Shown here one piece after another: positions 1 through 32,811 of a DNA stretch of 64,000 bases. The stretch comes from Eledone cirrhosa (lineage: Eukaryota), in assembly GCA_964016885.1 (NCBI GenBank), contig OZ024750.1, forward strand, positions 30,566,001 through 30,630,000. Direction: 5' to 3'. Numbering within the stretch: position 1 is the first letter of the stretch; the number at the start of each line of letters is the position of its first letter. The position numbers were made by a program, and so were the translations under genes. The notes under the pieces were generated by a model, which had not been told where the DNA came from, did no database searches, and was given only the letters and a program-made list of their open reading frames with translations.

Positions 1-1685
1 TCCAGTGGTCATCAGCCCTCGGGGTGAACTTTGGCATTTTCGCCTGCTACGAACGCTACTGCTTATCTTCCATGTGTCACAGTGTCTGACACAAGCAACA
101 GTACTGCATCTCAGCAGTATTTTGGAATTCAGGTTCACATGTTTTTTAATTTGGTGATCTCTATGGCTTCAGCAATACACAGCTAGCACTTCCTCTGGGC
201 CGGAGATTCAGATTTTGCATGTTTAACCAAACTCCTGTACAACCTGAATCCGGTTTGCGAGTCTTTAAGTCTCCATAAAGGTATCGTATTGCTGTAGCCG
301 TGGAGATCACCAAATTAAAAAAAGTAGTGAACCTGAATGCTGAAATACTGCTGAGCTGCCGACATGCCAGAAACACAACATTCTTGGTCCTAGCATTCAA
401 GAATACCAACCCAACAAATGCTATCTTCAATTTAAATACTATTGTTTCAATTCATTTCACTTCATATATTCACCTTATTCATCAATCCCAAACAATCACT
501 TTTCATGGATCTCACTCAATTTCACCTTATTTCATTTTATATATTTCATTCCATTCATTTTATTCCTTATCCCTTTTCATCTCATCTCACCTAACTTCAA
601 ACAGCTCCATTCCTAAAACATAAAAACTTAAACACCAATTGATACCTGCCATTCATATTCGACCTCACCATCTCTACCTTTGCCACCTACCCCTTCATCT
701 TCTACTTTACCATCACCACCATCATGATCATCACAATCTTATTCACCAAAAACAACACAACCACCACCTCTTCCCCTCACTTCTATGCTTACCATTATCC
801 TTCATACCAATATGGCACCACCTGTCATTCTACTGGCAGCAAATTCATGCTGACCACTGTTTTAAATAATTGTTTCAACTTTTGGCACAAGGCCAGTAAT
901 TAGCCAGTGCATTACTGGTACTTTATTTTATCAACCCCGTAAGGATGAAAGGCAAAGTCAACCTCGGCGGGATTTGAACTCAGATTGTAAAGGGACGTAA
1001 CTATGCTGGAAAGCATGCGTCCGACCCTCTACCGATACTGCCAATTCACATTTTAAATAATACCACAGCTGGTCCCTTTTCATTTTCCCCAATTTTGATA
1101 TTTATAATTTCATCTAAAGAAAATGTTATGCCCCTCCTAATTGCAATTCTTTCCAATTCATAACCTCTGTCACATTGAAAACCACTTTTCACCATCTACC
1201 CACTGCTGTCTCCCATCCACCCACCATAACTAAATAACTGTTTCTACTTTAGGCACAAGGCCAGCAATTATCTCAGTGCATTACTGGTACTTTATTTTAT
1301 CGACCCCGTAAGGATGAAAGGCAAAGTCAACCTCGGCGGGATTTGAACTCGGATCGTAAAGGGACGTAACTATGCTGGAAAGCATCGCGTCCGACCCTCT
1401 ACCGATACTGCCAAACTAAAAACATATACATAAAAGGAACACAAGACATATGTCAATAGTTTGGATGGGACCACCCACGTAAACTCTCATATGTGAAGAT
1501 GTGTCCATTAAGAGTCAGGATCTGATTGCATGATCAAACTCGAGCTGATTGATATGGAAACAGACTTTGAAGTAAAATATAAGAGGAAGTGAGAATCACC
1601 ATAACTTTCCAGTTGGATGTATTGCAGAAAATACTTAAAATTACATTAAAGAGGACATAAAGAAAAACCTGATAAAAAGTGTTAG

Positions 1686-2096
1686 AGAGAGTGGCAGGGT
1701 GAAGGGAGAGAGCGAGAGTGGTGAAGGAAGAGTGAGAGAGAGTGACAGTGATAAAGGGAGAGTGAGAGAGAGTGACATTGGTGAAGGGGAAAGTGAGAGA
1801 GAGAGAGTGACAATAATGAAGGCAAAGTGAGAGAGAGTGAGAGTGGTGAAGGGAGAGTGAGAGAGAGTGACAGTGGTGAAGGGAGAGTGAGAGAGAGTGA
1901 CAGCGGTGAAGGGAGAGTGAGAGAGAGTGACAGATATGAAGGGAGAGTGAGAGAGAGAGTGAGTGACAATAATGAAGGCAAAGTGAAAGAGAGTGACAGG
2001 GGTGAAGGGGAGAGTGAGTGAAAGTGACAGTGGTAAAGGGAGAGTGAGAGAGAGAGTGACAGTGAAGGGAGAGTGAGAGAGAGAGTGACAGTGAAG
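1686..2096. repeat. GA-rich ~30-bp minisatellite (second copy about 6095-6540)
   Basis: Repeats of gggagagtgagagagagtgacagtggtgaa; source of the SLSLTLP ORFs. Confidence 0.95.
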
Positions 2097-2149
2097 AAAT
2101 GCAAGTACCAAACCATGATGGTTTCTACCACAGAAATAGTAAATGATGC

Positions 2150-2735
2150 TGATTCCACCGTGGACTCTTTCGGCCTCCACCCACTTTCCTGTCGCCACAG
2201 TGCCGGCCGCATTCCACGCCATGCTGCCCTCAAAGAGGTCATTAAGCAGGGCTTGGACGCTGCAGGCTTCCCTTCCCAGCTCGAGCCGGTGGGGCTGGAT
2301 CGAGGGGACGGCAAAAGGCCAGATGGAATGACCATCTTCCCGTTCCGCGGTGGCAAACCCCTCGTCTGGGATGCCACATGCACCGACACTTTCTGCAGCC
2401 GCAACCTGGTGCAGTCTGCGACTGACGCAGGTTCTGCTGAACGTCGGGCTTAGGGGGGGGGGCAGGGGAGGAGGGCCAAACTCCTCAAATACCAGTCGCT
2501 CTCCGACAGGTTTGCGGTCGTGCCCCTGGCAGTGGAGACTTCTGGTGTCCTCGGCCCCAGGGCTACCTCCTTACTCACCACCATAGGCACTGAGCTGGCC
2601 AGCCGCAGGTGTGAGCCCTGCGAGTTGGAGTCGCTTTTCCAGCGCGTCTCGCTTGCCGTCCTTGGGGGAAATGCCTTCTCCATTCTGTCTGCCGGAGCTG
2701 TGGGTGGGCCTCATCGCATACCAATACATTAGTTA
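2150..2735 (+). mobile_element. 3' fragment of a CRE-like non-LTR retrotransposon (restriction-like endonuclease domain), disrupted
   Basis: GC-rich island; HPLSC..GRIPRH, DGKRPDG..LVWDATC, KY, PLAVETSG, FQRVSLAVLGGNA; stop and poly-G break at 2451. Confidence 0.85.
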
Positions 2736-3135
2736 AATACCATTCTTTCATCTGATATATCTCTAAGTTATATAATTGTTATTTATACAAGCAGTAACAA
2801 CTGGATCATTTGGATGTAAAGCTATGAAATAAAGGACAGCTTTAACTGTTTAACATTTAAACCAAATGTATCCGGCCAGAATTCTTTCCACTTTTTGAAA
2901 CTGACAGTAACCCAGAGCTCACACTGATGTTAAGATATCTTCTTAAAATAAACAATAACACCATGAAAATCTGGTAGACTCGAGATAATTATGTAAGATA
3001 AAATCTTTACCATGAATATACAATAGTAAATATAGAGTAATGTAAATGCTAAGCGGTTAAATAGAAAAGATAAGGACCAGTGGAAAGGTAGCTGAAATTG
3101 CCTGTAAATATATCACTTTTGATATATATATATAC

Positions 3136-3177
3136 CTGTAAATGTTGGAATTGTAGGTTTTGTATTTGGATTTACTC
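3136..3177 (-). CDS. Micro-exon B2 (identical to B1)
   Basis: Same sequence as 7576-7617, 4440 bp away. Confidence 0.65.
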
Positions 3178-3318
3178 CTGGATAAATGAAAAAATAAGTA
3201 TCATGAAATAAAAATATTTTTGACTTAGTAACTCATAACATCCTCTACCACATAAGCTACATTAACAATATTCTTGAAACATACAAAACACCACTATGAC
3301 TACATCACATTAACTCTT

Positions 3319-3733
3319 AACACCCACAAAGTTATTAACCATCTCGCCAACAACAACCCTGAGCACCTTTTTGATCTCCATGTGTCTAACACACGTGGAC
3401 ATGCCTACAAAATCAGAAAACAGCACAGCTCCCGTGACTTTCGGAAACATTTTTTCACGCTCAGAGTTGCTGAAGCATGGAACAAACTACCTGTGTCAGT
3501 TGTTAGCTGCCGAGACACTGCATCCTTTAAAACCCTCATGCTTCACAAAATTCGCCAAAACTACACCTGATGTACCCCTTCCATACACATGCACACATGT
3601 GTATATCATGACTCATGCACTGTTCATTTTCCTGATGTTTGTACATTACCCTATGTACTATACATACACTTTTTGATGAGTTGTGGTGCACCTGAGCACT
3701 GTTCACAATATTTCAATATTATTATCATTATTC
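3319..3733 (+). mobile_element. CR1-group LINE 3' fragment (copy at 7759-8173)
   Basis: TRGHAYKIRK..RKHFFTLRVAEAWNKLP C-terminus plus (ATT)n tail; absent from the homologous site near 10293. Confidence 0.85.
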
Positions 3734-4065
3734 TATACCACATGGTGTACATTAGCAAGACATTCTTGAAAAGTACAAGACCGCATTCTACATCACATTA
3801 AAAACTGAAAACTGTATTTTAGTTTACTGTAAATTTTAACAATGATCTGTACAATAGTAAATATACTATAGACATTTTTATAAACAAACCTGTTTTTAGA
3901 TACTTTATTTTCAAACATTACAGGATGTTATGAGTGAAGGAAGAGAATGTTCTACATTAACTCTGCCTCATATCTTCCATCATTTGTGAAAAAAGTTGCC
4001 AAATAACCCTTCCCTCTCTCTCTCTCTCTCCCCATATATATATAAACATTGAGCAATGTACTAAC

Positions 4066-4107
4066 CTGTAAATGGAGTTGTGGAAACCGTTGTAGTGGAG
4101 CTACTTC
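4066..4107 (-). CDS. Micro-exon A2 (identical to A1)
   Basis: Same sequence as 8506-8547, 4440 bp away. Confidence 0.7.
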
Positions 4108-6592
4108 CTTTTAATTAAAAGAAAGAATGTTAAGGTTATAAAGTAAATTAATTTGATATTACATATAAATAATAGCAATATGAAACTAATTTCAGATTAC
4201 TCTTGAAAGATATTGTAAAGGAACTGTTTAAATTGGAAATGAATAGTTGTACTTCTGCTTTTTTTACTGTATTTTTGAGATGAGAAATTATCAACAAAAT
4301 ACACTGATATATTCAGACCAGTGTCATTATTTTGGTTGTTATAGTTACACTGTTCCGACTCCTTGACTCTGGTCATCTGCATAATAAAAATGCAACCGAA
4401 TGCCACAGAACTCCAGTGGTCATCAGCCCTCGGGGTGAACTTTGGCATTTTCGCCTGCTACGAATGCTACTGCTAATCTTCCCCGTGTCACAGTGTCTGA
4501 CACAAGCAACAGTACTGCATCTCAGCAGTATTTTGGAATTCAGGTTCACATGTTTTTTAATTTGGTGATCTCTATGGCTTCAGCAATACACAGCTAGCAC
4601 TTCCTCTGGGCCGGAGATTCAGATTTTGCATGTTTAACCAAACTCCTGTACAACCTGAATCCGGTTTGCGAGTCTTTAAGTCTCCATAAAGGTATCGTAT
4701 TGCTGTAGCCGTGGAGATCACCAAATTAAAAAAAGTAGTGAACCTGAATGCTGAAATACTGCTGAGCTGCCGACATGCCAGAAACACAACATTCTTGGTC
4801 CTAGCATTCAAGAATACCAACCCAACAAATGCTATCTACAATTTAAATACTATTGTTTCAATTCATTTCACTTCATATATTCACCTTATTCATCAATCCC
4901 AAACAATCACTTTTCATGGATCTCACTCAATTTCACCTTATTTCATTTTATTTATTTCATTCCATTCATTTTATTCCTTATCCCTTTTCATCTCATCTCA
5001 CCTAACTTCAAACAGCTCCATTCCTAAAACATAAAAACTTAAACACCAATTGATACCTGCCATTCATATTCGACCTCACCATCTCTACCTTTGCCACCTA
5101 CCCCTTCATCTTCTACTTTACCATCACCACCATCATGATCATCACAATCTTATTCACCAAAAACAACACAACCACCACCTCTTTCCCTCACTTCTATGCT
5201 TACCATTATCCTTCATACCAATATGGCACCACCTGTCATTCTACTGGCAGCAAATTCATGCTGACCACTGTTTTAAATAATTGTTTCAACTTTTGGCACA
5301 AGGCCAGTAATTAGCCAGTGCATTACTGGTACTTTATTTTATCAACCCCGTAAGGATGAAAGGCAAAGTCAACCTCGGCGGGATTTGAACTCAGATCGTA
5401 AAGGGACGTAACTATGCTGGAAAGCATGCGTCCGACCCTCTACCGATACTGCCAATTCACATTTTAAATAATACCACAGCTGGTCCCTTTTCATTTTCCC
5501 CAATTTTGATATTTATAATTTCATCTAAAGAAAATGTTATGCCCCTCCTAATTGCAATTCTTTCCAATTCATAACCTCTGTCACATTGAAAACCACTTTT
5601 CACCATCTACCCACTGCAGTCTCCCATCCACCCACCATAACTAAATAACTGTTTCTACTTTAGGCACAAGGCCAGCAATTATCTCAGTGCATTACTGGTA
5701 CTTTATTTTATCGACCCCGTAAGGATGAAAGGCAAAGTCAACCTCGGCGGGATTTGAACTCGGATCGTAAAGGGACGTAACTATGCTGGAAAGCATCGCG
5801 TCCGACCCTCTACCGATACTGCCAAACTAAAAACATATACATAAAAGGAACACAAGACATATGTCAATAGTTTGGATGGGACCACCCACGTAAACTCTCA
5901 TATGTGAAGATGTGTCCATTAAGAGTCAGGATCTGATTGCATGATCAAACTCGAGCTGATTGATATGGAAACAGACTTTGAAGTAAAATATAAGAGGAAG
6001 TGAGAATCACCATAACTTTCAAGTTGGATGTATTGCAGAAAATACTTAAAATTACATTAAAGAGGACATAAAGAAAAACCTGATAAAAAGTGTTAGAGAG
6101 AGTGGCAGGGTGAAGGGAGAGAGCGAGAGTGGTGAAGGAAGAGTGAGAGAGAGTGACAGTGATAAAGGGAGAGTGAGAGAGAGTGACATTGGTGAAGGGG
6201 AAAGTGAGAGAGAGAGAGTGACAATAATGAAGGCAAAGTGAGAGAGAGTGAGAGTGGTGAAGGGAGAGTGAGAGAGAGTGACAGTGGTGAAGGGAGAGTG
6301 AGAGAGAGTGACAGCGGTGAAGGGAGAGTGAGAGAGAGAGTGACAGCGGTGAAGGGAGAGTGAGAGAGAGTGACAGATATGAAGGGAGAGTGAGAGAGAG
6401 AGTGAGTGACAATAATGAAGGCAAAGTGAAAGAGAGTGACAGGGGTGAAGGGGAGAGTGAGTGAAAGTGACAGTGGTAAAGGGAGAGTGAGAGAGAGAGT
6501 GACAGTGAAGGGAGAGTGAGAGAGAGAGTGACAGTGAAGAAATGCAAGTACCAAACCATGATGGTTTCTACCACAGAAATAGTAAATGATGC

Positions 6593-7175
6593 TGATTCCA
6601 CCGTGGACTCTTTCGGCCTCCACCCACTTTCCTGTCGCCACAGTGCCGGCCGCATTCCACACCATGCTGCCCTCAAAGAGGTCATTAAGCAGGGCTTGGA
6701 CGCTGCAGGCTTCCCTTCCCAGCTCGAGCCGGTGGGGCTGGATCGAGGGGATGGCAAAAGGCCAGATGGAATGACCATCTTCCCGTTCCGCGGTGGCAAA
6801 CCCCTCGTCTGGGATGGCACATGCACCGACACTTTCTGCAGCCGCAACCTGGTGCAGTCTGCGACTGACGCAGGTTCTGCTGAACGTCGGGCTTAGGGGG
6901 GGGGGGAGGGGAGGGCCAAACTCCTCAAATACCAGTCGCTTTCCGACAGGTTTGCGGTCGTGCCCCTGGCAGTGGAGACTTCTGGTGTCCTCGGCCCCAG
7001 GGCTACCTCCTTACTCACCACCATAGGCACTGAGCTGGCCAGCCGCAGGTGTGAGCCCTGCGAGTTGGAGTCGCTTTTCCAGCGCGTCTCGCTTGCCGTC
7101 CTTGGGGGAAATGCCTTCTCCATTCTGTCTGCCGGAGCTGTGGGTGGGCCTCATCGCATACCAATACATTAGTTA
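6593..7175 (+). mobile_element. Second copy of the CRE-like RLE fragment
   Basis: Duplicate of 2150-2735 within the tandem unit. Confidence 0.85.
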
Positions 7176-7575
7176 AATACCATTCTTTCATCTGATATAT
7201 CTCTAAGTTATATAATTGTTATTTATACAAGCAGTAACAACTGGATCATTTGGATGTAAAGCTATGAAATAAAGGACAGCTTTAACTGTTTAACATTTAA
7301 ACCAAATGTATCCGGCCAGAATTCTTTCCACTTTTTGAAACTGACAGTAACCCAGAGCTCACACTGATGTTAAGATATCTTCTTAAAATAAACAATAACA
7401 CCATGAAAATCTGGTAGACTCGAGATAATTATGTAAGATAAAATCTTTACCATGAATATACAATAGTAAATATAGAGTAATGTAAATGCTAAGCGGTTAA
7501 ATAGAAAAGATAAGGACCAGTGGAAAGGTAGCTGAAATTGCCTGTAAATATATCACTTTTGATATATATATATAC

Positions 7576-7617
7576 CTGTAAATGTTGGAATTGTAGGTTT
7601 TGTATTTGGATTTACTC
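7576..7617 (-). CDS. Pro/Thr-rich micro-exon B1 (42 nt)
   Basis: ttttttcatttatccag acceptor, CAG|gtatat donor; phase 1-1; GVNPNTKPTIPTFT; ends TTT ACA G like exon A. Confidence 0.65.
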
Positions 7618-8505
7618 CTGGATAAATGAAAAAATAAGTATCATGAAATAAAAATATTTTTGACTTAGTAACTCATAACATCCTCTACCACATAAGCTAC
7701 ATTAACAATATTCTTGAAACATACAAAACACCACTATGACTACATCACATTAACTCTTAACACCCACAAAGTTATTAACCATCTCGCCAACAACAACCCT
7801 GAGCACCTTTTTGATCTCCATGTGTCTAACACACGTGGACATGCCTACAAAATCAGAAAACAGCACAGCTCCCGTGACTTTCGGAAACATTTTTTCACGC
7901 TCAGAGTTGCTGAAGCATGGAACAAACTACCTGCGTCAGTTGTTAGCTGCCGAGACACTGCATCCTTTAAAACCCTCATGCTTCACAAAATTCGCCAAAA
8001 CTACACCTGATGTACCCCTTCCATACACATGCACACATGTGTATATCATGACTCATGCACTGTTCATTTTCCTGATGTTTGTACATTACCCTATGTACTA
8101 TACATACACTTTTTGATGAGTTGTGGTGCACCTGAGCACTGTTCACAATATTTCAATATTATTATCATTATTCTATACCACATGGTGTACATTAGCAAGA
8201 CATTCTTGAAAAGTACAAGACCGCATTCTACATCACATTAAAAACTGAAAACTGTATTTTAGTTTACTGTAAATTTTAACAATGATCTGTACAATAGTAA
8301 ATATACTATAGACATTTTTATAAACAAACCTGTTTTTAGATACTTTATTTTCAAACATTACAGGATGCTATGAGTGAAGGAAGAGAATGTTCTACATTAA
8401 CTCTGCCTCATATCTTCCATCATTTGTGAAAAAAGTTGCCAAATAACCCTTCCCTCTCTCTCTCTCTCTCCCCATATATATATAAACATTGAGCAATGTA
8501 CTAAC

Positions 8506-8547
8506 CTGTAAATGGAGTTGTGGAAACCGTTGTAGTGGAGCTACTTC
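8506..8547 (-). CDS. Ser/Thr-rich micro-exon A1 (42 nt)
   Basis: taaaag acceptor, CAG|gttagt donor; phase 1-1; GSSSTTTVSTTPFT. Confidence 0.7.
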
Positions 8548-10998
8548 CTTTTAATTAAAAGAAAGAATGTTAAGGTTATAAAGTAAATTAATTTGATATT
8601 ACATATAAATAATAGCAATATGAAACTAATTTCAGATTACTCTTGAAAGATATTGTAAAGGAACTGTTTAAATTGGAAATGAATAGTTGTACCTCTGCTT
8701 TTTTTACTGTATTTTTGAGATGAGAAATTATCAACAAAATACACTGATATATTCAGACCAGTGTCATTATTTTGGTTGTTATAGTTACACTGTTCCGACT
8801 CCTTGCCTCTGGTCATCTGCATAATAAAAATGCAACCGAATGCCACAGAACTCCAGTGGTCATCAGCCCTCGGGGTGAACTTTGGCATTTTCGCCTGCTA
8901 CGAACGCTACTGCTTATCTTCCCTGTGTCACAGTGTCTGACACAAGCAACAGTACTGCATCTCAGCAGTATTTTGGAATTCAGGTTCACATGTTTTTTAA
9001 TTTGGTGATCTCTATGGCTTCAGCAATACACAGCTAGCACTTCCTCTGGGCCGGAGATTCAGATTTTGCATGTTTAACCAAACTCCTGTACAACCTGAAT
9101 CCGGTTTGCGAGTCTTTAAGTCTCCATAAAGGTATCGTATTGCTGTAGCCGTGGAGATCACCAAATTAAAAAAAGTAGTGAACCTGAATGCTGAAATACT
9201 GCTGAGCTGCCGACATGCCAGAAACACAACATTCTTGGTCCTAGCATTCAAGAATACCAACCCAACAAATGCTATCTTCAATTTAAATACTATTGTTTCA
9301 ATTCATTTCACTTCATATATTCACCTTATTCATCAATCCCAAACAATCACTTTTCATGGATCTCACTCAATTTCACCTTATTTCATTTTATTTATTTCAT
9401 TCCATTCATTTTATTCCTTATCCCTTTTCATCTCATCTCACCTAACTTCAAACAGCTCCATTCCTAAAACATAAAAACTTAAACACCAATTGATACCTGC
9501 CATTCATATTCGACCTCACCATCTCTACCTTTGCCACCTTCCTTTTCATCTTCTACTTTACCATCACCACCATCATGATCATCACAATCTTATTCACCAA
9601 AAACAACACAACCACCACCTCTTCCCCTCACTTCTATGCTTACCATTATCCTTCATACCAATATGGCACCACCTGTCATTCTACTGGCAGCAAATTCATG
9701 CTGACCACTGTTTTAAATAATTGTTTCTACTTTTGGCAGTATTACTGGTACTTTATTTTATCGACCCCGTAAGGATGAAAGGCAAAGTCAACCTCGGCGG
9801 AATTTGAACTCAGATCGTAAAGGGACGTAACTATGCTGGAAAGCATGCGTCCGACCCTCTACCGATACTGCCAATTCACATTTTAAATAATACCACAGCT
9901 GGTCCCTTTTCATTTTCCCCAATTTTGATATTTATAATTTCATCTAAAGAAAATGTTATGCTCCTCCTAATTGCAATTCTTTCCAATTCATAACCTCTGT
10001 CACATTGAAAACCACTTTTCACCATCTACCCACTCTTGTCTCCCACCCACCCACCATAACCAAATAACCAAATAACATGTACATAAAAGGAACACAAGAC
10101 ATATGTCAATAGTTTGGATGGGACCACCCATGTAAACTCTCTGATATGAAGAAGTGTCCATTAAATACAATCACCCTTGAAATAAAAATATTTGGATTTA
10201 GTAACTCATAACATCCTCTACCACATGAGCTACATTAACACAACATTCTTGAAAAATACAAAACAGCACTATGACTACATCACATTAACTCTTCACATTC
10301 TATTCCACATGGTGTACATAACAAGACATTCTTGAAAAGTACAAAACAGTAGTATGATTATACTACATTGAACAATGAAATCTTTATTTCAGTTTACTGC
10401 AAATTTTAACAATGATCTGTACTCTAGGAAATATACTATAAACATTTTAGTTAACACACCTCATTTAAAATACTTTATGTTGAATCATTTCAGGACGTTT
10501 AGAATTGAGGATGAGAAATTTGTATGTTAACTCAGTCTTATATCTTCCATCACTTATGAAAAAAATCCCCAAATAACCCCTGCCCTTTCTGTCAATCTTT
10601 ACTCCCCACCTCTCTCTCTCTATATACATATATATATATAATAGGTTAGCGGGACTAGCATAAGGTTTCCCCGCTACTACCGGTTGCATCTCAGCGTAAT
10701 TAATATCTAAGGAGAACATGCTTTTGTTTCATCATTTGAGTCTGTTTTTGAACATCATCCATTTCATTATCATCATGGGGCTGAAGTTGTTCACCTCCAC
10801 ATGGTGGGCTCTGGAAACTGATCATTGATCCCTGATCTGAATCAGGAAAATGACAACAATCTGAGACAGGAACAGTCTCATATACAAGAAGAAGAAGAAG
10901 ATGATCACCTATTTTCTATGATTACATAGGTTAGATGGCTATCTCATGCTAAAGTTAAATTGGACAGGTAATTAGTTCCTACTAGTATACTTTATTTT

Positions 10999-11390
10999 GG
11001 CTTGGTTTCTACAGCTGGATGTCCTTTCTAACACCTACCATTTCACAGTGTATACTGAGAGCTTGGTTTCTACAGCTGGATGTCCTTCCTAGCACCAACC
11101 ACTTCACAGTGTATACTGAGAGCTTGGCTTTTACAGCTGGATGTCCTTCCTAGCACCAACCACTTCACAGTGTATACTGAGAGCTTGGCTTTTACAGCTG
11201 GATGTCCTTCCTAGCACCAACCACTTCACAGTGTATACTGAGAGCTTGGCTTTTACAGCTGAATGTCCTTCCTAGCACCAACCACTTTACAGTGTATACT
11301 GAGAGCTTGGCTTTTACAGCTGAATGTCCTTCCTAGCACCAACCACTTTACAGTGTATACTGAGAGCTTGGTTTCTACAGCTGGATGCCC
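10999..11390. repeat. 61-bp minisatellite, about 6.5 copies, derived from the SINE A / RTE 3' UTR segment
   Basis: Unit gcttggtttctacagctggatgtccttcctagcaccaaccacttcacagtgtatactgaga. Confidence 0.93.
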
Positions 11391-11740
11391 TTATACCAAC
11401 TACTTACCTATAATCTCTATCTTGTCATAAACAAACCATAAAAATATTCAGACCTCCACAGTCGATCTACTTATGTAAAAATACACCAGTTTGCGTATAG
11501 ATTCATACATAGAGACACACATACTGAGTTAGGTGTACACACACACATACTGAGATGCATGACAAGCAAAAAAACATGAAATTCAGAGGAGCAACAGGGA
11601 CTAATCTCAGCAATATTTTATCCTTGTTGGTTTTAAGTCTGTTTTCCATGCTTGCATGTGTTATATTGCTGAGATAGGAGCTGGAGCTAGCTGGATTGTA
11701 AACAGATAGCTTTGAGAAACTTAATCTCTCTCTCTCTCTA

Positions 11741-12470
11741 AATATCTATATATCTAGGGTGGGTAAAATTCCCAAGATCCAAGGACGAGTTCTCTCCAGT
11801 GGTCTCTGTCCCTCATTATTGCTGCCATGTCCTGCGTCTCCAACAGACCAGTGTCTGTCCTTAGGGCATCAACATACATTAACCTTGGTCTTCCTCTTCC
11901 AGTGTGTCCATGCAGGTACTCCCACAGGAGCACTGAGTGCAATGTCAACTCTGGATGTTGGTGAGCATGTCCAGCTAACCCCAGTCTCCTCTGTGTCACT
12001 TTTGAGCTGACTTTTGGGAGGCTCCCATACAGCTCTGAGTTTTTCATCCTCAGTGTATACAGCATTCTCGTGTAGCACCCATCCACCATCTGAGTGAGTT
12101 TCTTGGTCAGTGTCCAAGTCTCAGACCCATACAGCAGCACAGACTCCACTACAGCAATGAAGAGGCGGATCTTCAGGTCTTCACGACAAATACAGTGAAG
12201 GAGGCAGAGGATTTGATGCAGGAAGTTGAGACTGTGTCGATAAGTGTGGGGCTGAGAATGAATGAGACTAAGACAAAATGTCTGGTAGAGAATGCTGAGA
12301 AGCCAGAGGGGATTACTAATGTAGGCGGGAAGCCGCTGGAATTAGTTGAGGACTTCCTGTATTTGGGAGCAAATATTAGGAATACGGAAGATGATGTGGT
12401 TGAGAAGAAGAGCAAAGCCTGGGCGGCGTGCCACAGTTTGAGATCGGTGTTGAAGTTGAACCTTCGTGAA
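11741..12470 (-). mobile_element. RTE-group LINE 3' fragment with an inverted 5' segment (12188-12470 on +)
   Basis: Minus part REDLKIRLFIAVVESVLLYGSETW..GRPR; plus part GLRMNETKTK..FLYLG..AWAACHSL is the immediately upstream coding sequence. Confidence 0.85.
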
Positions 12471-12523
12471 ATATATATATATATATATATATACATGTTA
12501 TATACATTGAGCAATGTACTGAC

Positions 12524-12574
12524 CTATAAATGGAGTCGTTACTGAGGCCACCAGTGTAGTGAATTCTGTTGTTG
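12524..12574 (-). CDS. Thr-rich micro-exon A0 (51 nt)
   Basis: pyrimidine tract then tttaag acceptor, AG|gtcagt donor; phase 1-1; TTTEFTTLVASVTTPFI; flanks homologous to exons at 8506 and 4066. Confidence 0.7.
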
Positions 12575-13708: not shown

Positions 13709-13851
13709 TGCAGCCAGTTTCATCTGTTCCATCATGGCAATCAAAGAATCCATTACAAACTTGTGTTGAGTTGATACACATATCATCAGAACATTGAAAA
13801 CCATCAGTACAATTACATATCTTACAATCCATTTTGCCACCAGAACAAGTG
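13709..13851 (-). CDS. Exon: end of E module plus LDL-receptor class A repeat
   Basis: ttaacag / gtaagt; 143 nt, phase 2 to 1; TCSGGKMDCKICNCTDGFQCSDDMCINSTQVCNGFFDCHDGTDETGC with the DCxDGxDE motif. Confidence 0.92.
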
Positions 13852-17088: not shown

Positions 17089-17185
17089 CAGTTTTTACAG
17101 TCATTGAAAATGACGACAGCATCTGAAGGATATATAATCTTTTCATACAAACATGAACAATCTTTTTGTTTAACGCATTTCTCTC
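17089..17185 (-). CDS. Exon: end of TIL plus E module
   Basis: ttttgtag / gtgagg; 97 nt, phase 1 to 2; EKCVKQKDCSCLYEKIIYPSDAVVIFNDCKN. Confidence 0.9.
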
Positions 17186-17568
17186 CTACAAAATATGAAA
17201 AGAATACACAATTATACCAAATCATAGTTTTTTTTAGCTGTTTAATTATTGGGTAACATTTATAAAGGTCAGCTGAAAGTTCATGGGCTGACTATGAAGG
17301 AGTGATGCTAGAGCTGTGAAATTTTGCATGCATTAATTTCAACTCTTTTTATTAATAACTGCATTGTTTCTTTCCAGGAACTATGTTGAAAAATAAACCT
17401 CATTTGGTCATTCCATGAGAGTATCTTAGTCAGCTTATGAACTTTTCAGCTGATCCTGATATAATAATCATATAATTTAATCAGTGTCTGGAATAATGAG
17501 TATATACTCACTTTATTCATAGAAATAACATGTATGTAAAACTTAGACATAGAACACTTCAAAATATA

Positions 17569-18082
17569 TCATCATCATCATCATCATCAACGTTTAACGT
17601 CCGTGTTCCACGCTTGCATGGGTTTGGACGGGGGTAGTCCCACTTGAGGCAAGAGTGATTGTCTTGCTCGCATAGGACTGTCTGGCAGGTTTTCTACAGT
17701 TGGATGCCCTTCCTAACACCAACCACATTTACAGTGTGGGTCTGGGAGGTTTTTACCGTGTTGCCTACACGGCCACATTACAGCGTGGACTGTGTGTTTT
17801 TTTGTCGTGACACCTACACGATCTCATTTGTTTCGGCCTCGATGGCGAGGCACCAACATAACTTTACATAGAACGGGGTGGTGTGGATCGGGTGGGGGTG
17901 GGGGTGGTGGGACGGGGTGTATTTTGTTAGAGATGCCTACTGGCTGGAGTAGGTTTTACTATATATTTAGGTAAGGCGGGTCTTCTCTGTTACTGAGTAC
18001 CGCCAAAGGTCTCGGTCCAGTGACATTGTCTTGGAGAGGTGTAAGTGTGTGATGTCGGAGTTTATCAGCTCGTCCCAGGTTT

Positions 18083-18087
<5 letters not shown>
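17569..18087 (-). mobile_element. 3' end of the same RTE subfamily as 19768-21297, with complete UTR and (GAT)n tail
   Basis: 17738-18087 is the near-exact reverse complement of 20948-21297. Confidence 0.9.
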
Positions 18088-18131
<44 letters not shown>

Positions 18132-18257
18132 GAAAAAGTTCTATTTAAATTGTTGGGATACAACAAGCAAATATTTTTATAACTGATATAAAGCACTCAA
18201 CAAGTATTTGGAGTAAACATACGATATTAACAAATGGAAACTATATTTAAAAAACCA

Positions 18258-18812
<555 letters not shown>

Positions 18813-18818
18813 AATATA

Positions 18819-18938
<120 letters not shown>

Positions 18939-19043
18939 CTGAGTAGCCCAATTTGCATATCGAGTGGATTAACGATTAACCCACTCGATATGCAAATTGG
19001 GCTACTCAGCCGTTAATATGCATAAGGTAATATAAGTATATAC

Positions 19044-19130
19044 GTTCAACAATCTGGCAGGAAGGTATACGTTGCTGACGATAGCTAATAAGCTTGAAAC
19101 TAGTACAGCGTTCCTTTGTCAGTGTTGAAC
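19044..19130 (+). ncRNA. Minimal type-I hammerhead ribozyme motif
   Basis: acgttg-CTGACGA-t-agct-aata-agct-t-GAAAC-ta-GTA-cagcgt; stem I extends via aagg/cctt and gttcaaca/tgttgaac. Confidence 0.75.
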
Positions 19131-19312
19131 AAACGAGCAACGATGGTTGCTAGACACTACGGCTTAATACGGGATGTTTGTTTACAAACACACCGAGCAT
19201 TATAATAAATGTTCGGTGAATCCATACGTACATATATATATGTGTGCATGTATGTATATATATATACATACTACTGTACGTCTGTATACATATATGTATG
19301 TACGTGTACATA

Positions 19313-19368
<56 letters not shown>

Positions 19369-19373
<5 letters not shown>

Positions 19374-19623
19374 TGTTTCCTTGAGCAAGACACTTTATTT
19401 CACATTGCTCCAGTTTACTCAGCTGTAGAAATAAGATGATAGGGACTGGTGTCCCTATCATTCCACTGCAAAGTGGTCGTGGAGGTGCCACGGCAAAAAA
19501 GCACCCAGCACTCACTGTAAATGAGGTTGGTGTTAGGAAGGGCATCCAGCTGTAGAAATCAAGCCAGCATCAGTTCCCGTCCCACCCTTGCAAGCAGGGA
19601 AAAGTGGACGTAAAATGAAATGA

Positions 19624-19627
<4 letters not shown>
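19369..19627 (+). mobile_element. SINE family A copy lacking the tRNA head (a 3' piece also lies at 53370-53505, minus)
   Basis: Starts at the CORE-like domain and ends ggacgtaaaatgaaatgatgat. Confidence 0.85.
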
Positions 19628-19669
<42 letters not shown>

Positions 19670-19767
19670 ATATATATATATATATGATGATATATATATA
19701 TATGATGATATATATATATATATGATGATATATATATATATATATATGATGATATATATATATATAT

Positions 19768-21297
19768 ATGACGCTCTTTTCATTGTACGACAACTACAGG
19801 AGAAGTACCTAGCTAAAGGTAAACCCCTCTACTTAGCTTTTGTCGACTTGGAGAAAGCCTTCGACAGAGTCCCCTGCTCCATTATCTGGTGGGCTCTTAG
19901 AAAACTAGGCGTTGACGAATGGCTTGTGAGAGCTATACAAGCCATGTATAAAGAAACAGTCAGCAAGGTTAGAATTAACAACGAATATAGTGAAGAGTTT
20001 AGCGTAAAAGTTGGCGTCCATCAGGGCTCTGTTCTCAGCCCCCTACTATTTATTATTGCCCTTCAGGCTATAACAGAGGAGTTCAAGACCGGCTGCCAAT
20101 GGGAACTCCTATACGCAGACGACCTGACACTCATAGCGGAATCAATGGCCGAGCTAGAGAAGAAATTCCAAACATGGAAGCACGGCCTAGAATCAAAAGG
20201 CCTTAAAATTAACCTGGCTAAGACTAAAGTTCTAGTTGGTAGGAAAGAAAATAAGGTGGCGGTCCCTTCTGGGAAATGGTCGTGCTCGGTGTGTAGGAAA
20301 GGCGTAGGTAGAAACTCCATTTTATGTCCTAAATGCAAAGTATGGGTGCATAAAAGATGTAGTGGGATCACAGGTAAGCTAACTAAGAACATAGATTTTA
20401 CATGTGGCCGGTGCTCTGGTGCAATAAGTAGCAGCAAGTGCCCACAAAATACTAGCTCTTTCAATTGCGCAGAGGGTTCTATAGAAATAGTGGACAGTTT
20501 CCGTTACCTGGGTGATAAAATCAGCAGTGGGGGAGGGTGCTCTGAAAGTACAGTAGCTAGAGTCAGAACTGGTTGGAAAAAGTTCAGAGAGCTTATACCA
20601 CTATTAGCTGCTAAAGGGTTCTCCCTAAAAATGAAAGGCAGGTTGTACGATGCCTGCATACGAACAGCAATGCTGCATGGCAGTGAGACCTGGGCATTGT
20701 GTGCAGAGGATATACGCAGACTAGAGAGGAACGAAGTTTGCATGCTCCGCTGGATGTGTAACAGTAATATACGTGAACGGCAAAGCATAAACGAACTAAG
20801 GAAAAAATTAGAAATAAGAGGGATCAGATGTTGTTTACTCGAGAGAAGGCTACGTTGGTATGGACACGTGATGCGCATGAAAGTCGATAGCTGTATAACA
20901 AAGTGCAGGGCAATAAAGATAGGCGGTAGCCACGGAATAGGCAGACCTAGAAAAACGTGGGACGAGCTGATAAACTCCGACCTCACACACTTACACCTCT
21001 CCAAGACAATGTCACTGGACCGAGACCTTTGGCGGTACTCAGTAACAGAGAAGACCCGCCTTACCTAAATACATAGTAAAACCTACTACAGCCAGTAGGC
21101 ATCTAACAAAATACCCCCCCCCCCCCCCGTCCCACCACCCCCAACCCATCCACGCCACCCCGTTCTATGTAAAGTTGTGTTGGTGCCACACCATCCAGGC
21201 CGAAACAAATGAGATCGTGTAGGTGTCACGACAAAAAAACACACAGTCCACGCTGTAATGTGGCCGTGTAAGCAACATGGTAAAAACCTCCCAGACC
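19768..21297 (+). mobile_element. 5'-truncated RTE of a sister subfamily; RT-PHD frame open to 21068, 3' UTR interrupted at 21297
   Basis: [19 protein letters not shown]4HC3..RLRWYGH; UTR matches the reverse complement of 17738-17965. Confidence 0.92.
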
Positions 21298-24200
21298 ATT
21301 ACCCCACCACCACTGTCCTTCTAGCCCTCAATTTTCCCACCGTTATGGATGGATGAGCTGGGAATACACGAGCAACTCTGAATCAATAGATGAAATATGA
21401 ATCGGCGAGCTACCAAGCACCCACGTGAAGCGCCAACCCAGAGACCCTCCCCTACGAGTGTCGACAAATGCCCAAAACTCCGAGTTGGTACCATCAATGT
21501 AGGCTCAATGAAAGGAAGAGCAGGAGAAATCGTAGAAATGCTAGAGCGAAAGGAAGTTGATGTATGCTGTGTGCAAGAGACTAGATGGAGAGGAGGGTCT
21601 GCTAGAGTCCTTGTAGGAAAAAGCCAGTGCTACAAATTTTTCTGGGTGGGAAATGACGATGGGATGGGTGGTGTAGGTATACTATTAGCTGACAAGTGGG
21701 TAGATAAAGTAATCTCAGTGTACAGGGTAAATGCAAGAATCATTAAACTCAGACTAGTCCTGAATAAGACAATTACCACAATAATATCAGCTTACGCACC
21801 CCAATCGGGGCTGCCAGACGAACTTAAGGATAGGTTTTACGAGTCCCTAATACACACTACTGCTCTAACAGACGACAAGGACTTCCTAATCATTGCAGGA
21901 GATTTTAACGGACACGTAGGTAAACACTGCGACGGCTTCAATAGAGTACATGGAGGCCATGGAGTTGGCACAAGGAATGAGGAAGGATTCAGACTTCTAG
22001 AATTCTGCGACGCCAATGACATGTCGATATGTAACACAAACTTTAAAAAACCCGACAACCACCTGATCACCTATAGATCAGGGGAGCACTCTAGTCAGTT
22101 AGATTTTATCCTCATCAGAGGACGTGACAGATGGACGGTCGTAAACACAAAAGCCTTCCCTAGTGAGGAATGTACATCCCAACATAGCTTAGTTGTCAGC
22201 GACCTCACGGTCAGAACTAGACGAGCCCTGAAACAGAGGCCAACCTGGAGAAGAAAGATCTGGAAGCTGAAAGTCCCCTCAACCAGTAACAGATTTAAAG
22301 ATATTTTACTCAACGCCTACGACAGTAAAGAAGAACAGATAGAGACATTTAACGTAGAAGAGAACTGGGAGTTCCTAAAAAATAACTTACTAGAGGCGAC
22401 GGATGAGGTTTGTGGCTGGAGTAAGACCTCAAGCAGGAGGAGAGTGACTTGGTGGTGGAACAATAAGGTAGATGAAGCAGTCAAGGCCAAGAGACAGGCA
22501 TGGAAAGAATGGAAGAACGGGGGGAGCAGGGTACATTACATAGAGACCAAGAGGGAAGCTAGGCGACAAGTATACTTAGCTAGGAGGGAAGCAGAGGATA
22601 GAAAATTCAAGCATGTTTTACAACGTGAGGACCAGAAACAGGAGGTATTCAAGATTGCGAGGCAGTGTGTCAGAGATAGTTGTGATGTCATTGGAGAGAA
22701 GTGTATCCGGAATGATAAAGGTGAGCTTGCCCTCACAAGTGCTGAGAAGAAAGATGCATGGAAGAGTCATTATGATAGATTACTAAATGAGGAGAATGCA
22801 TGGGAAGAAGAGACCCTACCCCACGTAGACCCTATAGAGGGACCAGCAGTACAAGTCAGCGGCAGCGTAGTAAGTAAGGCAATCAGAGATATGAAGATAG
22901 GGAAGGCAACCGGTCCATCGGGTATAGCTGCCGAGATGCTGAAGGCATCTGGGTCTGTAGGTCACACTATAACCACACGTATCGTTAACCAGGTAATACT
23001 AGAGGGGGCCATACCAAAAGATTGGTGCAGTAGCATCATTGTCAACTGCTACAAAGGTAAAGGCGATGCACTAGATAGAGGAAACTATAGAGGTATAAAG
23101 TTGATGGACCAGGTCATGAAAGTAACAGAAAGAGTTATAGCACAGCTGATTAGGGACCGGGTGAATATAGACGAGATGCAATTTGGGTTTGTTCCAGGGA
23201 AAGGCACCACTGATGCGCTCTTCCTTGTGAGGCAATTACAGGAAAAGTACCTAGCTAAAAGTAAGCCACTCTACTTGGCATTTGTCGACCTTGAGAAAGC
23301 CTTTGACAGAGTTCCACGTGCAGTAATCTGGTGGGCTCTTAGAAAACTAGGAGTAGATGAATGGCTTGTGAAAGCGGTACAAGCCATGTATAGGGGAGCA
23401 GTCAGCAAAGTTAGGATTGGCAATGAGTATAGCGAGGAATTTAGCGTACAGGTTGGGGTCCACCAGGGCTCTGTTCTTAGCCCTCTCCTGTTCATCATAG
23501 TCCTGCAGGCAATAACGGAGGAGTTTAAGACCGGATGCCCATGGGAACTCCTGTATGCTGATGACCTCGCACTCATAGCTGAATCTATGGTAGAACTAGA
23601 GAATAAATTCCAAACCTGGAAGCAGGGACTAGAGAGAAAGGGCCTCAAAGTCAACATGACAAAGACTAAGGTCCTTATAAGTAGACGAGAAAACAGAACC
23701 CAGATCCCCTCAGGGAAATGGCCTTGCTCAGTATGTAGGAAAGGTGTAGGTAGGAACTCCATTCTTTGCCCCAAATGCAAACAATGGGTACACAAGAGAT
23801 GTAGCGGGATCTCAGGAAGCTTAATTAAGAATGTAGGATTCACATGCAGCAGCTGTGCTGAAACAGCAAGCAAACAGCCACAGGAAACAAGTACCACCAA
23901 TCTCTGGGAGGGCCCTGTAGAAACAGTAGACAGCTTCTGCTACCTAGGTGACCGAATTAGCAACGGAGGTGGGTGCTCAGAAAGTACAATAACTAGGGTA
24001 AGAACGGGATGGAAGAAGTTTAGGGAACTACTACCACTGCTAGCTGCAAAAGGCTTCTCCCTCAGAATGAAAGGCAGACTGTATGATGCGTGTATCCGAA
24101 CAGCGATGTTGCATGGTAGTGAGACCTGGGCGCTGAAGGTGGAAGACTTACGTAGATTAGAGAGAAACGAAGCCTGCATGCTCCGATGGATGTGTAACAG

Positions 24201-24826
24201 TAATATACGTGAACGACAAAGCATAAATGAATTGAGAGAGAGACTGAGCATAAGAGGAATCAAATGCTGCGTGCAGGAGAGGCGGTTACGCTGGTATGGA
24301 CATGTGATGCGTATGAAGGATGACAGCTGCATAAAAAGGTGCAGAGCACTAGAAGTTGATGGAAACCGCGGAGTGGGGAGACCCAAGATGACTTGGGATG
24401 AGGTGATAAAAGCCGACCTTACCCAACTACACCTCTCAAAGTCAATGACACACGACCGTGACTTCTGGCGTCACGCAGTAATACAGGGTACCCGACCTCC
24501 CATGGGTACATGCTGAAGCATATAAACAATATGCCCCCCCCCCCCCCCCCCCCACCGCAAGGTGGTCGTGGAGGCGCCACGGCAAAAAAGCACCCAGCCC
24601 ACACTGTAAAGTGGACGTGTAGGCGCCACGAAAGAGCACCCAGCACTCACTGTAAATGAGGTTGGTGTTAGGAAGGGCATCCAGCTGTAGAAATCAAGCC
24701 AGATCAGTTCCTGTATGAGCAAGGCATGGTCAGCCGACCAGACACTGCCCACAACAGGACAACCCGTCTAACCCATGCTAGCGTGGAAGAACGGACGTAA
24801 AACGGTGATGATGATGATGATGATGA
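21298..24826 (+). mobile_element. Apparently full-length RTE-clade non-LTR retrotransposon
   Basis: Short 5' leader, single intact ORF, 3' UTR ending in (GAT)n. 5' boundary inferred from where the preceding element breaks off; no TSD identified. Confidence 0.92.
21397..24516 (+). CDS. RTE ORF, 1039 aa: AP endonuclease plus reverse transcriptase with internal PHD-type zinc finger
   Basis: APE motifs GTINV, VQETRW, AYAPQ, GDFNGH, LDFIL; RT motifs QFGF, FVDLEKAFD, GVHQGSVLSP, YADD, YLG; C4HC3 at 23724-23856. Confidence 0.95.
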   Translation: MNRRATKHPREAPTQRPSPTSVDKCPKLRVGTINVGSMKGRAGEIVEMLERKEVDVCCVQETRWRGGSARVLVGKSQCYKFFWVGNDDGMGGVGILLADKWVDKVISVYRVNARIIKLRLVLNKTITTIISAYAPQSGLPDELKDRFYESLIHTTALTDDKDFLIIAGDFNGHVGKHCDGFNRVHGGHGVGTRNEEGFRLLEFCDANDMSICNTNFKKPDNHLITYRSGEHSSQLDFILIRGRDRWTVVNTKAFPSEECTSQHSLVVSDLTVRTRRALKQRPTWRRKIWKLKVPSTSNRFKDILLNAYDSKEEQIETFNVEENWEFLKNNLLEATDEVCGWSKTSSRRRVTWWWNNKVDEAVKAKRQAWKEWKNGGSRVHYIETKREARRQVYLARREAEDRKFKHVLQREDQKQEVFKIARQCVRDSCDVIGEKCIRNDKGELALTSAEKKDAWKSHYDRLLNEENAWEEETLPHVDPIEGPAVQVSGSVVSKAIRDMKIGKATGPSGIAAEMLKASGSVGHTITTRIVNQVILEGAIPKDWCSSIIVNCYKGKGDALDRGNYRGIKLMDQVMKVTERVIAQLIRDRVNIDEMQFGFVPGKGTTDALFLVRQLQEKYLAKSKPLYLAFVDLEKAFDRVPRAVIWWALRKLGVDEWLVKAVQAMYRGAVSKVRIGNEYSEEFSVQVGVHQGSVLSPLLFIIVLQAITEEFKTGCPWELLYADDLALIAESMVELENKFQTWKQGLERKGLKVNMTKTKVLISRRENRTQIPSGKWPCSVCRKGVGRNSILCPKCKQWVHKRCSGISGSLIKNVGFTCSSCAETASKQPQETSTTNLWEGPVETVDSFCYLGDRISNGGGCSESTITRVRTGWKKFRELLPLLAAKGFSLRMKGRLYDACIRTAMLHGSETWALKVEDLRRLERNEACMLRWMCNSNIRERQSINELRERLSIRGIKCCVQERRLRWYGHVMRMKDDSCIKRCRALEVDGNRGVGRPKMTWDEVIKADLTQLHLSKSMTHDRDFWRHAVIQGTRPPMGTC

Positions 24827-25025
24827 TATATATATATATATGATGATATATATATATATCATCATATATATATATATATCATCATATATATCATCATATA
24901 TATATATATATATCATCATATATATATATATCATCATATATATATATATATCATCATATATATATATATATATAATGATATATATATATGATAATATATA
25001 TATATATATATGATGATATATATGA

Positions 25026-25093
<68 letters not shown>

Positions 25094-25629
25094 ATATATA
25101 TATATATATGATGATATATATATATGATGATATATATATATATATGATGATATATATATATGATGATATATATATATGATGATATATATATATATATATA
25201 TGATGATATATATATATATATATGATGATATATATATATATATATTAGTGGGATTGTCCCTGACCCTCACCAATGAGGATGGGAAGAGATCAGACATTAT
25301 ACATTAAAATATTTCAAATGCTTGTATTATGAATCAAATTAAGGGTAGAATCAGGAGAATGCTGGACAACATGCTTTGCAGCATATAGTTAAGGCCCTTT
25401 ACTTTCTGAGTTCAATCCCCACTGAGGTTAACTTAGCCTTGCATCTTTATAGGGGTTGATAAAATAAATTACCAATAACGCAATGAGGTTGATTTAATTG
25501 ATTATCCCTTTTCCTTCAAATTGCTGGACTTGTGCAAAAAGTCAAAACTATTATGAATCACACACTATGTTAGTGTCACTGGTAATTAATAAATAAAAAG
25601 TAAAAAAATGAAATGAAAATTTTCCATAC

Positions 25630-25776
25630 CATCCTCAACAAAACCTGGTGGACAAAAGCATCCCTCCACACAATAAGTAGAATTATCAGTAATATGAGTT
25701 TCTGATAAATCTCTACATGTTCTAGGGTTAGATGGACCGCATTCTTTATAGATTCGAGGTTCGTCACACATAATAG
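25630..25776 (-). CDS. Exon: TIL domain
   Basis: atttcag / gtatgg; 147 nt, phase 1-1; IMCDEPRIYKECGPSNPRTCRDL..CVEGCFCPPGFVED. Confidence 0.92.
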
Positions 25777-26403
25777 CTGAAATAAGACATAATAAATTTT
25801 AGTTATAATGTTTTACATATCAATGCTTGAATTATCTAATACAAAAATTTGAAGTTAACTGCACATAAAATACCAATTATGTATTATAAGAAGGATAATT
25901 ATTTCATGATTGCACTATTTATATGCACTGTACTGTATAGAAATAGTGTGTATAATTTATATACCATCATACTGTTCAAAATAAAACATGTTTTATGAAA
26001 ATCAACCAATAATTAATAAAGTTAACAATTTTAAATAAGGAGTTACAGACAAGCCAACCTCTAAAAAATTCAAACGGGGAGTATCCTGGAAAAAGTGCCC
26101 CAAAATGGGGAGATTTTACATAATGAAAGAGCTATACCTATTTTTACAAGAGAAGTATCGACCCCAAGTGGGTGGGAGATCTCCCCATCAGATGGGGAGA
26201 GTTGACAAGTCTGGTGTTACTCCCCCCCCCACCCCCCACACCTTGTAGTTATGTGTATATATGTATTTAATATCTTTGATACTAACCTGCCCCAAACCAG
26301 CTCTGGTGCTATGAAAAAAACCCACCAATTGTAAAAGTATCTAAATTACAATCTTCCGATATATCTTAATATAAAAACCTTTTGCTATGTTAGAAATGTC
26401 ATC

Positions 26404-26625
26404 TTAACCCTTTAATGTTCAAACCAGCCAAAACCGGCCAGAATTCTTTACCTCATTCTGTTGAAATTGGCTGTAACTGGTCGCTCATACCGATGTTAAG
26501 GTATTGTTCTCAAAATAAATACTTTCAAAATCTCATAGATTCGATATTATGTGAGATAATTATGTAAGCCTTTACCATGAAAATATAATACTATATTTAG
26601 TGTAATGTGAATGCTAAGGGGTTAA
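26404..26625. mobile_element. piggyBac-type MITE; related elements at 2842-3060, 7282-7500, 14574-14815, 29676-29998, 55134-55374
   Basis: ttaaccc...gggttaa ends with short terminal inverted repeats. Confidence 0.6.
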
Positions 26626-27200: not shown

Positions 27201-27240
<40 letters not shown>

Positions 27241-31568: not shown

Positions 31569-31589
31569 GAACAAACAAATACAACTTAC

Positions 31590-32616: not shown

Positions 32617-32675
<59 letters not shown>

Positions 32676-32735: not shown

Positions 32736-32811
<76 letters not shown>

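What the first reader, a model, noticed from the sequence alone, without database searches (positions are those of the whole stretch)
3136..12574. Mucin-like domain built from symmetric micro-exons that are being multiplied by a 4.4-kb tandem duplication
Seen: after the LDLa exon (ends phase 1) the only credible exons are phase 1-1 micro-exons: TTTEFTTLVASVTTPFI (51 nt), then alternating 42-nt A (GSSSTTTVSTTPFT) and B (GVNPNTKPTIPTFT), one A+B pair per 4.4-kb unit, so 84 coding nt per unit. A and B both end TTT ACA G, pointing to an older round of duplication. Known: vertebrate gel-forming mucins usually encode PTS repeats in one large exon, while arrays of symmetric micro-exons are a recognised route to variable secreted proteins (schistosome MEGs). 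Inference: the O-glycosylated spacer could be tuned both by genomic copy number and by frame-preserving exon skipping. Two A-type acceptors use the uncommon AAG, which may favour skipping.
Basis: partly seen in the sequence, partly recalled or inferred. Interest (0 to 1): 0.8.

Follow-up and report, generated by a model that had tools for sequence, protein, structure and literature searches.

The report
Octopus mucin's duplicated linker micro-exons
Eleven tiny, fast-changing stretches in a real 4.4-kb repeat of an octopus-type mucus gene likely encode a short hinge of at most 157 amino acids, while the mucin region itself lies in one predicted giant 18-kb exon just outside the window, so the design is a known one.

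Summary
The candidate exons sit at the stated coordinates. With the left flank there are 11: E0, five A, four B and one diverged B', in four full 4.4-kb units plus a partial one (0.3-0.64% apart). Short-read depth fits 4-5 copies.

They do not build the mucin domain. 4.7 kb past B' lies an 18,181-nt open frame (6,059 codons, 940 T(n)SQP repeats) with a phase-1 acceptor, then TSP1, TIL and cystine-knot-like exons. This is a gel-forming, SCO-spondin-like mucin with the usual giant PTS exon; the micro-exons add at most 157 aa (2.5%).

They are likely real exons, though splicing is inferred: they diverge 4-7 times faster than their own flanks with frame and AG/GT kept, and B' is the best of 13,219 windows for the post-LDLa linker of the neighbouring paralog and its Octopus bimaculoides counterpart.

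Multi-exon PTS repeats, and length tuning by recombination plus splicing, were described or proposed for chicken Muc13 in 2006. The scan noted a similar layout at another mucin of this genome (e1-8670757). The neighbouring paralog carries about 55 four-exon units, a larger case.

The parts
13709..13851 (-). LDLa exon, phase 2 to phase 1
   Evidence: PF00057 E 7.8e-7; translation; splice sites
12524..12574 (-). E0, 51-nt phase 1-1 candidate exon; AAG acceptor, with an in-frame CAG 9 nt inside that would give 42 nt; older paralog of A
10178..10297 (-). upstream flank of a B'-type exon whose exon has been deleted
8506..8547 (-). A1, 42-nt phase 1-1 candidate exon
7576..7617 (-). B1, 42-nt phase 1-1 candidate exon
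4066..4107 (-). A2, identical to A1
3136..3177 (-). B2, identical to B1
1..10068 (.). In-window part of the 4.4-kb tandem array. Left of the window (C10 position minus 30,566,000) the array runs on to -9661, with A3 (-304), B3 (-1234), A4 (-4741), B4 (-5671), A5 (-9150, S>I). Then come B' (-9824..-9865), the predicted giant PTS exon (-14595..-32775; 18,181 nt), six TSP1 and two TIL exons and a cystine-knot-like last exon (to -62750).
17089..64000 (-). upstream VWD, C8 and TIL exons of the same gene, which continues right of the window to about 99,930

Best explanation
The eleven segments are likely small coding exons that form a short, fast-evolving Ser/Thr/Pro hinge (at most 157 aa) between the LDLa domain and the predicted 18-kb PTS exon of an octopod gel-forming mucin, multiplied by a recent tandem duplication. 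Shown: the sequences, phases, array, giant frame and domain order. Inferred history: an ancestral E0 + B' pair, with B' related to the post-LDLa linker exon of the paralogous mucin, was duplicated (flanks now about 5% apart); the copies changed fast into A and B, B gaining Thr and Pro; the upstream B'-type copy was deleted; the A+B unit was then amplified, likely by unequal crossing-over (units 0.3-0.64% apart, with mosaic variants). All are phase 1-1 and the giant exon starts in phase 1, so any subset can be included or skipped without a frameshift; that tolerance likely lets the array grow at little cost. Inferred from known mucins: the product is secreted, O-glycosylated on the PTS, and polymerises through its VWD assemblies and cystine knot. 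Length would be set by the giant exon, not by the micro-exons.
For: (1) Giant PTS frame with a phase-1 CAG acceptor and GT donor. (2) Domain order by Pfam and collinear tblastn with O. vulgaris CAI9718654.1 from its first 20 residues to its last exon. (3) Exon over flank divergence: B/B' 12 of 42 against 16 of 213, p 3.8e-4; E0/A 7 of 34 (conservative) or 12 of 42 against 11 of 265, p 1.7e-3 or 4e-6; no 42-nt window of the upstream flanks holds more than 4 mismatches. Indels inside E0/A are 3 and 6 nt. All 12 B/B' differences fall in 9 codons that change residue (read). (4) B' matches the paralog's 120-nt phase 1-1 linker exon (shuffle p 0.0012) and the O. bimaculoides model's linker (p 0.0024); 3 of 13,219 windows reach both scores, all B' in the predicted frame. 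(5) The paralog has short phase 1-1 S/T/P exons in about 55 units, at the places where the O. bimaculoides model has S/T/P spacers. (6) A + flank matches 6 places at this locus and one 47-nt scrap elsewhere, so it is not a dispersed repeat. (7) Short-read contig depth 26-42 in the unit against 5-9 outside; ratios 4.2, 5.3, 4.8.
Against: The O. vulgaris ortholog models (CAI9718654.1, CAI9718653.1) lack LDLa, linker and PTS altogether, so no ortholog vouches for the micro-exons. Only B' matches the paralog at protein level: E0, A, B and the giant exon's start do not (8 of 10 comparisons not significant). The thresholds were set from the score of B' itself, and against the paralog linker alone three opposite-strand windows score higher. 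A has a modest AAG acceptor with out-of-frame AGs at +4 and +7; B and B' use GTATAT donors. The recent units are too alike to show selection. The depth figures come from one sample, possibly the assembled one, from the 24 longest records listed, and the tool warns that depth is not copy number.
Confidence: 0.6

Rival explanations
1. Only one or two ancestral exons (E0, B') are used, or none any longer; the A+B copies are passengers of a neutral intronic duplication and are mostly skipped.
For: LDLa can join the giant exon directly in frame. One B'-type exon has been deleted without breaking the gene. Modest splice signals on A and B. The unit is mostly repeats and intron.
Against: A and B, not only E0 and B', keep AG/GT and frame after 21-29% change while their flanks changed 4-8%. 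All ten A and B-type copies are open. The same donor hexamer as A (at 48661) and an AAG acceptor (about -41529) occur at domain exons of this gene.
Confidence: 0.27
2. One reading: the micro-exons are the mucin spacer, and its length is tuned by copy number and by regulated skipping, as in schistosome MEGs.
For: All exons are symmetric, the array is recent, and the exons evolve fast. The paralog shows the same construction at 55-fold scale.
Against: They make up 471 of 18,652 nt of linker plus PTS, 2.5%. Four of five A and all four B copies are identical, so skipping would change only length, by 14 aa a step.
Confidence: 0.1
3. The array is an assembly artefact (false duplication).
For: The assembly has local errors: two single-base gaps within 500 nt near the 13-kb TA run.
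Against: Units differ by 13-28 substitutions, many shared between units. Short-read contigs carry unit-specific variants at 689, 8693, 8923 and 9278. Depth is 4-5 fold, and the 5-copy part is deeper than the 4-copy part in 3 of 3 runs (ratios 1.17, 1.32, 1.23, table 8; 1.25 expected).
Confidence: 0.03

Closest known systems
Octopus vulgaris mucin-2-like CAI9718654.1 / CAI9718653.1; Argonauta hians mucin-2-like GAB1608828.1
   Same: Likely orthologs: collinear matches, mostly 45-75% identity per exon, from the N-terminus to the cystine-knot end.
   Different: The O. vulgaris models lack LDLa, linker, giant PTS and the first TSP1/TIL block; the Argonauta model is a 684-aa fragment. Whether this is annotation or biology could not be told.
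Invertebrate gel-forming, SCO-spondin-like mucins (Lang et al. 2016, PMC4948705, passages)
   Same: Three N-terminal VWD-C8-TIL units, PTS region, LDLa, C-terminal cystine knot.
   Different: One LDLa only; a 6,059-codon PTS exon preceded by a micro-exon hinge; orthology to SCO-spondin was not tested.
Chicken Muc13 (Lang et al. 2006, PMC1552070, passages)
   Same: Near-identical short exons each encoding an S/T/P repeat; the authors proposed length variation by recombination and by splicing.
   Different: Muc13 is a membrane mucin whose whole PTS is multi-exonic (20-aa repeats); here 97.5% of linker plus PTS is one exon.
Xenopus Otogl (PMC5789918, passages) and FIM-C.1 (PMC7177656, passages)
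   Same: Secreted mucins with a multi-exonic mucin domain (Otogl) or splicing-based polymorphism (FIM-C.1).
   Different: Different domain content and lineage; here the multi-exon part is a minor hinge.
Schistosome micro-exon genes (PMC5825161, PMC4350168, passages)
   Same: Short symmetric exons, secreted product, fast non-synonymous change, duplication among transposon-rich DNA.
   Different: MEGs have about 80% of the coding region in 6-36-bp exons; here about 2% or less, in 42-51-nt exons, most of them identical copies.

Membership tests
Gel-forming mucin (Lang 2016) | Three N-terminal VWD-C8-TIL units | tested here: met
   Second and third VWD, two C8 and four TIL by Pfam; first VWD by tblastn to the ortholog, which has three VWD
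Gel-forming mucin (Lang 2016) | Large PTS domain | tested here: met
   6,059 codons, 80% T+S+P
Gel-forming mucin (Lang 2016) | C-terminal cystine knot | tested here: inconclusive
   Cys_knot E 7.5e-4, 20.2 bits against a 24-bit cut-off; 59% identical to the ortholog's end
Gel-forming mucin (Lang 2016) | Secretion, O-glycosylation, gel formation | not testable with these tools
   First 20 residues 90% identical to the ortholog's; proteins named SCO-spondin and mucin occur in O. vulgaris skin mucus (PMC11431876, passages), not tied to this gene
Schistosome-type micro-exon gene (MEG) | About 80% of the coding region in short symmetric exons of 6-36 bp | tested here: not met
   471 nt, 2.5% of linker plus PTS alone; exons of 42-51 nt
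Schistosome-type micro-exon gene (MEG) | Protein variants made by exon skipping | not testable with these tools
   Skipping would keep the frame; not observed
Schistosome-type micro-exon gene (MEG) | Accelerated non-synonymous evolution | tested here: met
   Exon against flank, p 3.8e-4 and 1.7e-3; no formal dN/dS on 42 nt
Muc13-type multi-exon PTS domain | The PTS domain as a whole is encoded one repeat per exon | tested here: not met
   97.5% lies in one frame; true only of the hinge
SCO-spondin | Orthology; many LDLa and TSP1 repeats, no giant PTS | not tested
   One LDLa and six TSP1 seen; no tree built; the repeat counts of SCO-spondin are recalled

The most novel reading that the evidence does not exclude
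The hinge is a selected, hypervariable module: octopod mucins repeatedly amplify short symmetric exons next to LDLa (11 here, about 110 S/T/P exons with 55 discoidin-like domains in the neighbouring paralog), and the exons are driven apart 4-7 times faster than their introns, for example to escape microbial mucin-cutting proteases that would sever the polymerising head from the PTS brush. Copy number and skipping would then vary a cleavage-prone joint rather than overall length.
Probability: 0.15. Interest if true: 0.6.

Novelty: new member of a known kind. Interest (0 to 1): 0.3.

Why it matters
It completes a mucin that public octopod gene models hold only in pieces or without its middle: a protein of roughly 8,000 aa or more with an 18-kb exon. 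It also shows that exon-over-flank divergence can flag tiny exons without RNA. As a mechanism it is ordinary: multi-exon PTS repeats and the tuning idea are in print since 2006, and here they would change length by 2.5% at most. If the fast change proves adaptive, the hinge becomes a small, testable target for host-microbe pressure on mollusc mucus.

Tried and rejected
RNA: no RNA holder listed; the three runs listed are contigs of one sample and behave as DNA, so junctions could not be tested.

Homolog searches: the VWD2 exon against proteins of 180-2000 aa gave 0 of 86 candidates; the LDLa exon gave no candidate, so no protein with LDLa plus these peptides was found (weak evidence by the tools' own notes).

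A common origin of A and B: rejected as unproven; flanks do not align convincingly, and E0 and B' end differently. Likeness of the B' acceptor to the giant exon's acceptor: seen, short and AT-rich, not counted. Pseudogene: the frameshift at 46148 in a VWD exon is absent from short-read contigs in 2 of 3 runs (depth 2.6 and 3.8; the third run has no cover there), so it is likely an assembly error or a second allele.

No gene-specific splice-site score was obtained; splice strength is judged by eye and by a pyrimidine count only.

The paralog's repeated domain has no Pfam hit; Atlas hits of 0.84-0.87 point to F5/8 type C, a lead only.

Literature: five searches found no paper on this gene or on micro-exon arrays in cephalopod mucins (listings only; open-access library only; no supplements read). 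PMC3056801 passages gave nothing on multi-exon MUC19. Earlier-finding look-ups near the locus, by the paralog domain and in relatives were empty.
Full report
Coordinates are window coordinates; values of 0 or below, or above 64,000, are G000 C10 positions minus 30,566,000. The genome has 3.0 Gb; named homologs are all octopods.

Observation. The left flank extends the set to eleven: E0, five A, four B and a diverged B'. The array spans -9661 to 10068 as four units of 4409-4440 nt and one of 2033 nt; full units differ at 13-28 sites (0.30-0.64%), and the 40 variable columns are shared in a mosaic pattern. Among 633 open symmetric AG..GT segments in the non-redundant 13 kb, only E0, A and B (with its +3 variant) have 50% or more S/T/P together with a pyrimidine tract.

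The array looks real. Contigs of three short-read runs of one sample give depth 26-42 inside the unit and 5-9 outside, ratios 4.2, 5.3 and 4.8. The part present five times is deeper than the part present four times in all three runs, and unit-specific variants appear in the contigs. Limits: 24 records listed, one sample that may be the assembled one, and depth is not a copy number.

The gene. Pfam on single exons gives EGF, TIL, VWD, C8, TIL, TIL, VWD, C8, TIL, LDLa, then six TSP1 and two TIL; 20 of 27 segments had a relevant hit, two had an unrelated weak hit and five none. The last exon gives a weak cystine-knot hit. O. vulgaris CAI9718654.1 aligns collinearly from 99,930 to -62,747. The key point lies outside the window: 4.7 kb after B', a CAG acceptor in phase 1 opens 18,181 nt without a stop, 6,059 codons, 80% T+S+P (45.5% T, 17.9% S, 16.9% Q, 16.5% P), 940 T(n)SQP repeats, closed by a GT donor at -32775. 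This is the single giant PTS exon typical of gel-forming mucins. All eleven micro-exons add 471 nt, 157 aa, 2.5% of linker plus PTS. A frameshift at 46148 is absent from short-read contigs in 2 of 3 runs, so the gene is probably intact.

Are they exons? Splicing is not shown; three indirect lines favour it. First, two older duplications give internal controls. E0 and A share flanks that differ at 11 of 265 sites, while the exons differ at 7 of 34 (12 of 42 with the poorly aligned start) plus in-frame indels of 3 and 6 nt. B and B' differ at 12 of 42 against 16 of 213 in the flanks. Fisher p is 1.7e-3 (or 4e-6) and 3.8e-4. All 12 B/B' differences lie in codons that change residue. Neutral intron would not concentrate change between an AG and a GT and keep both; positive selection, or conversion that evens out the introns while selection keeps the exons apart, would. 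Second, a paralogous mucin 200-350 kb upstream has a 120-nt phase 1-1 S/T exon right after its LDLa, 50% identical to the linker in O. bimaculoides XP_052821913.1. B' matches both linkers (shuffle p 0.0012, 0.0024; the other 8 of 10 comparisons are not significant) and is the top site among 13,219 windows of both strands (thresholds set after the fact). At most differing sites B' rather than B agrees with the paralog (read), so B is likely the derived form. Third, that paralog carries about 55 tandem 2.0-2.1-kb units, each with two domain exons and two short phase 1-1 S/T/P exons, all open, placed where the O. bimaculoides model has S/T/P spacers. Against: the O. vulgaris ortholog models skip the whole middle; the splice signals of A and B are modest, although an AAG acceptor and A's donor hexamer occur at domain exons of this gene.

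Mechanism. Shown: anatomy, phases, array, giant frame. Inferred: an E0 + B' pair was duplicated and changed into A + B; the upstream B'-type copy was deleted (its flank remains at 10297-10178); the A+B unit was then amplified, likely by unequal crossing-over. Symmetry makes gain, loss or skipping harmless to the frame. The product would be a secreted polymerising mucin (by analogy with known gel-forming mucins) with a short variable hinge before a 6,000-residue brush. Tuning by these exons is possible but small: 28 aa a unit.

Known kinds. Chicken Muc13 encodes its PTS one repeat per exon, and the authors proposed length variation by recombination and by splicing (PMC1552070, passages). Xenopus Otogl has a multi-exonic mucin domain (PMC5789918, passages); FIM-C.1 is polymorphic by splicing (PMC7177656, passages). 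Invertebrate mucins close to SCO-spondin are described (PMC4948705, passages). MEGs have about 80% of their coding sequence in 6-36-bp exons (PMC5825161, passages) and evolve fast (PMC4350168, passages): this locus shares the fast evolution but fails the defining share. Five searches found no paper on this gene. Earlier scan notes on other DNA of this genome report a mucin with 46 micro-exons plus a giant exon, and micro-exon arrays more diverged than their flanks (unchecked).

Verdict: real feature, partly misread. A new member of a known kind; interest 0.3.

Noticed in passing
G000:C10:30,797,220-30,911,789 (L054-L066): The neighbouring paralogous mucin (likely ortholog of O. bimaculoides XP_052821913.1) has about 55 tandem 2.0-2.1-kb units, each with four exons: 260 + 127 nt for a domain with a weak F5/8 type C lead, a 69-nt and a roughly 70-170-nt phase 1-1 S/T/P exon. 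All are open. A 1,483-codon S/T/P frame follows at 30,796,223-30,791,775.
   Followed up: partly
window 17089 donor to -34143 acceptor: LDLa, hinge and giant exon together form a phase 2-2 block that could be skipped in frame. The O. vulgaris models lack this block and more, so a PTS-less isoform is possible, or those models are mis-annotated.
   Followed up: partly
window 46148 and 46290: Two single-base gaps in the assembly against short-read contigs; the first shifts the frame of a VWD exon.
   Followed up: yes
window 32620-45821: 13.2-kb TA-rich microsatellite inside an intron that splits the third VWD domain.
   Followed up: no
giant exon, codons 2441-2491 and 5991-6059: Only two non-repeat islands in 6,059 codons; the last 60 codons hold three cysteines and start a small domain.
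   Followed up: no
window 19770-24500, 46500-47200, 51600-52700: Decayed copies of a repeated element that look like RTE-type retrotransposon pieces (recalled likeness), matching each other at 68-77%.
   Followed up: no
G000 C5:67,559,258; C2:401,499,777 and 399,926,877; C26:13,637,555 and 13,864,204: Five more VWD3-like paralogs (40-65%) elsewhere in the genome.
   Followed up: no
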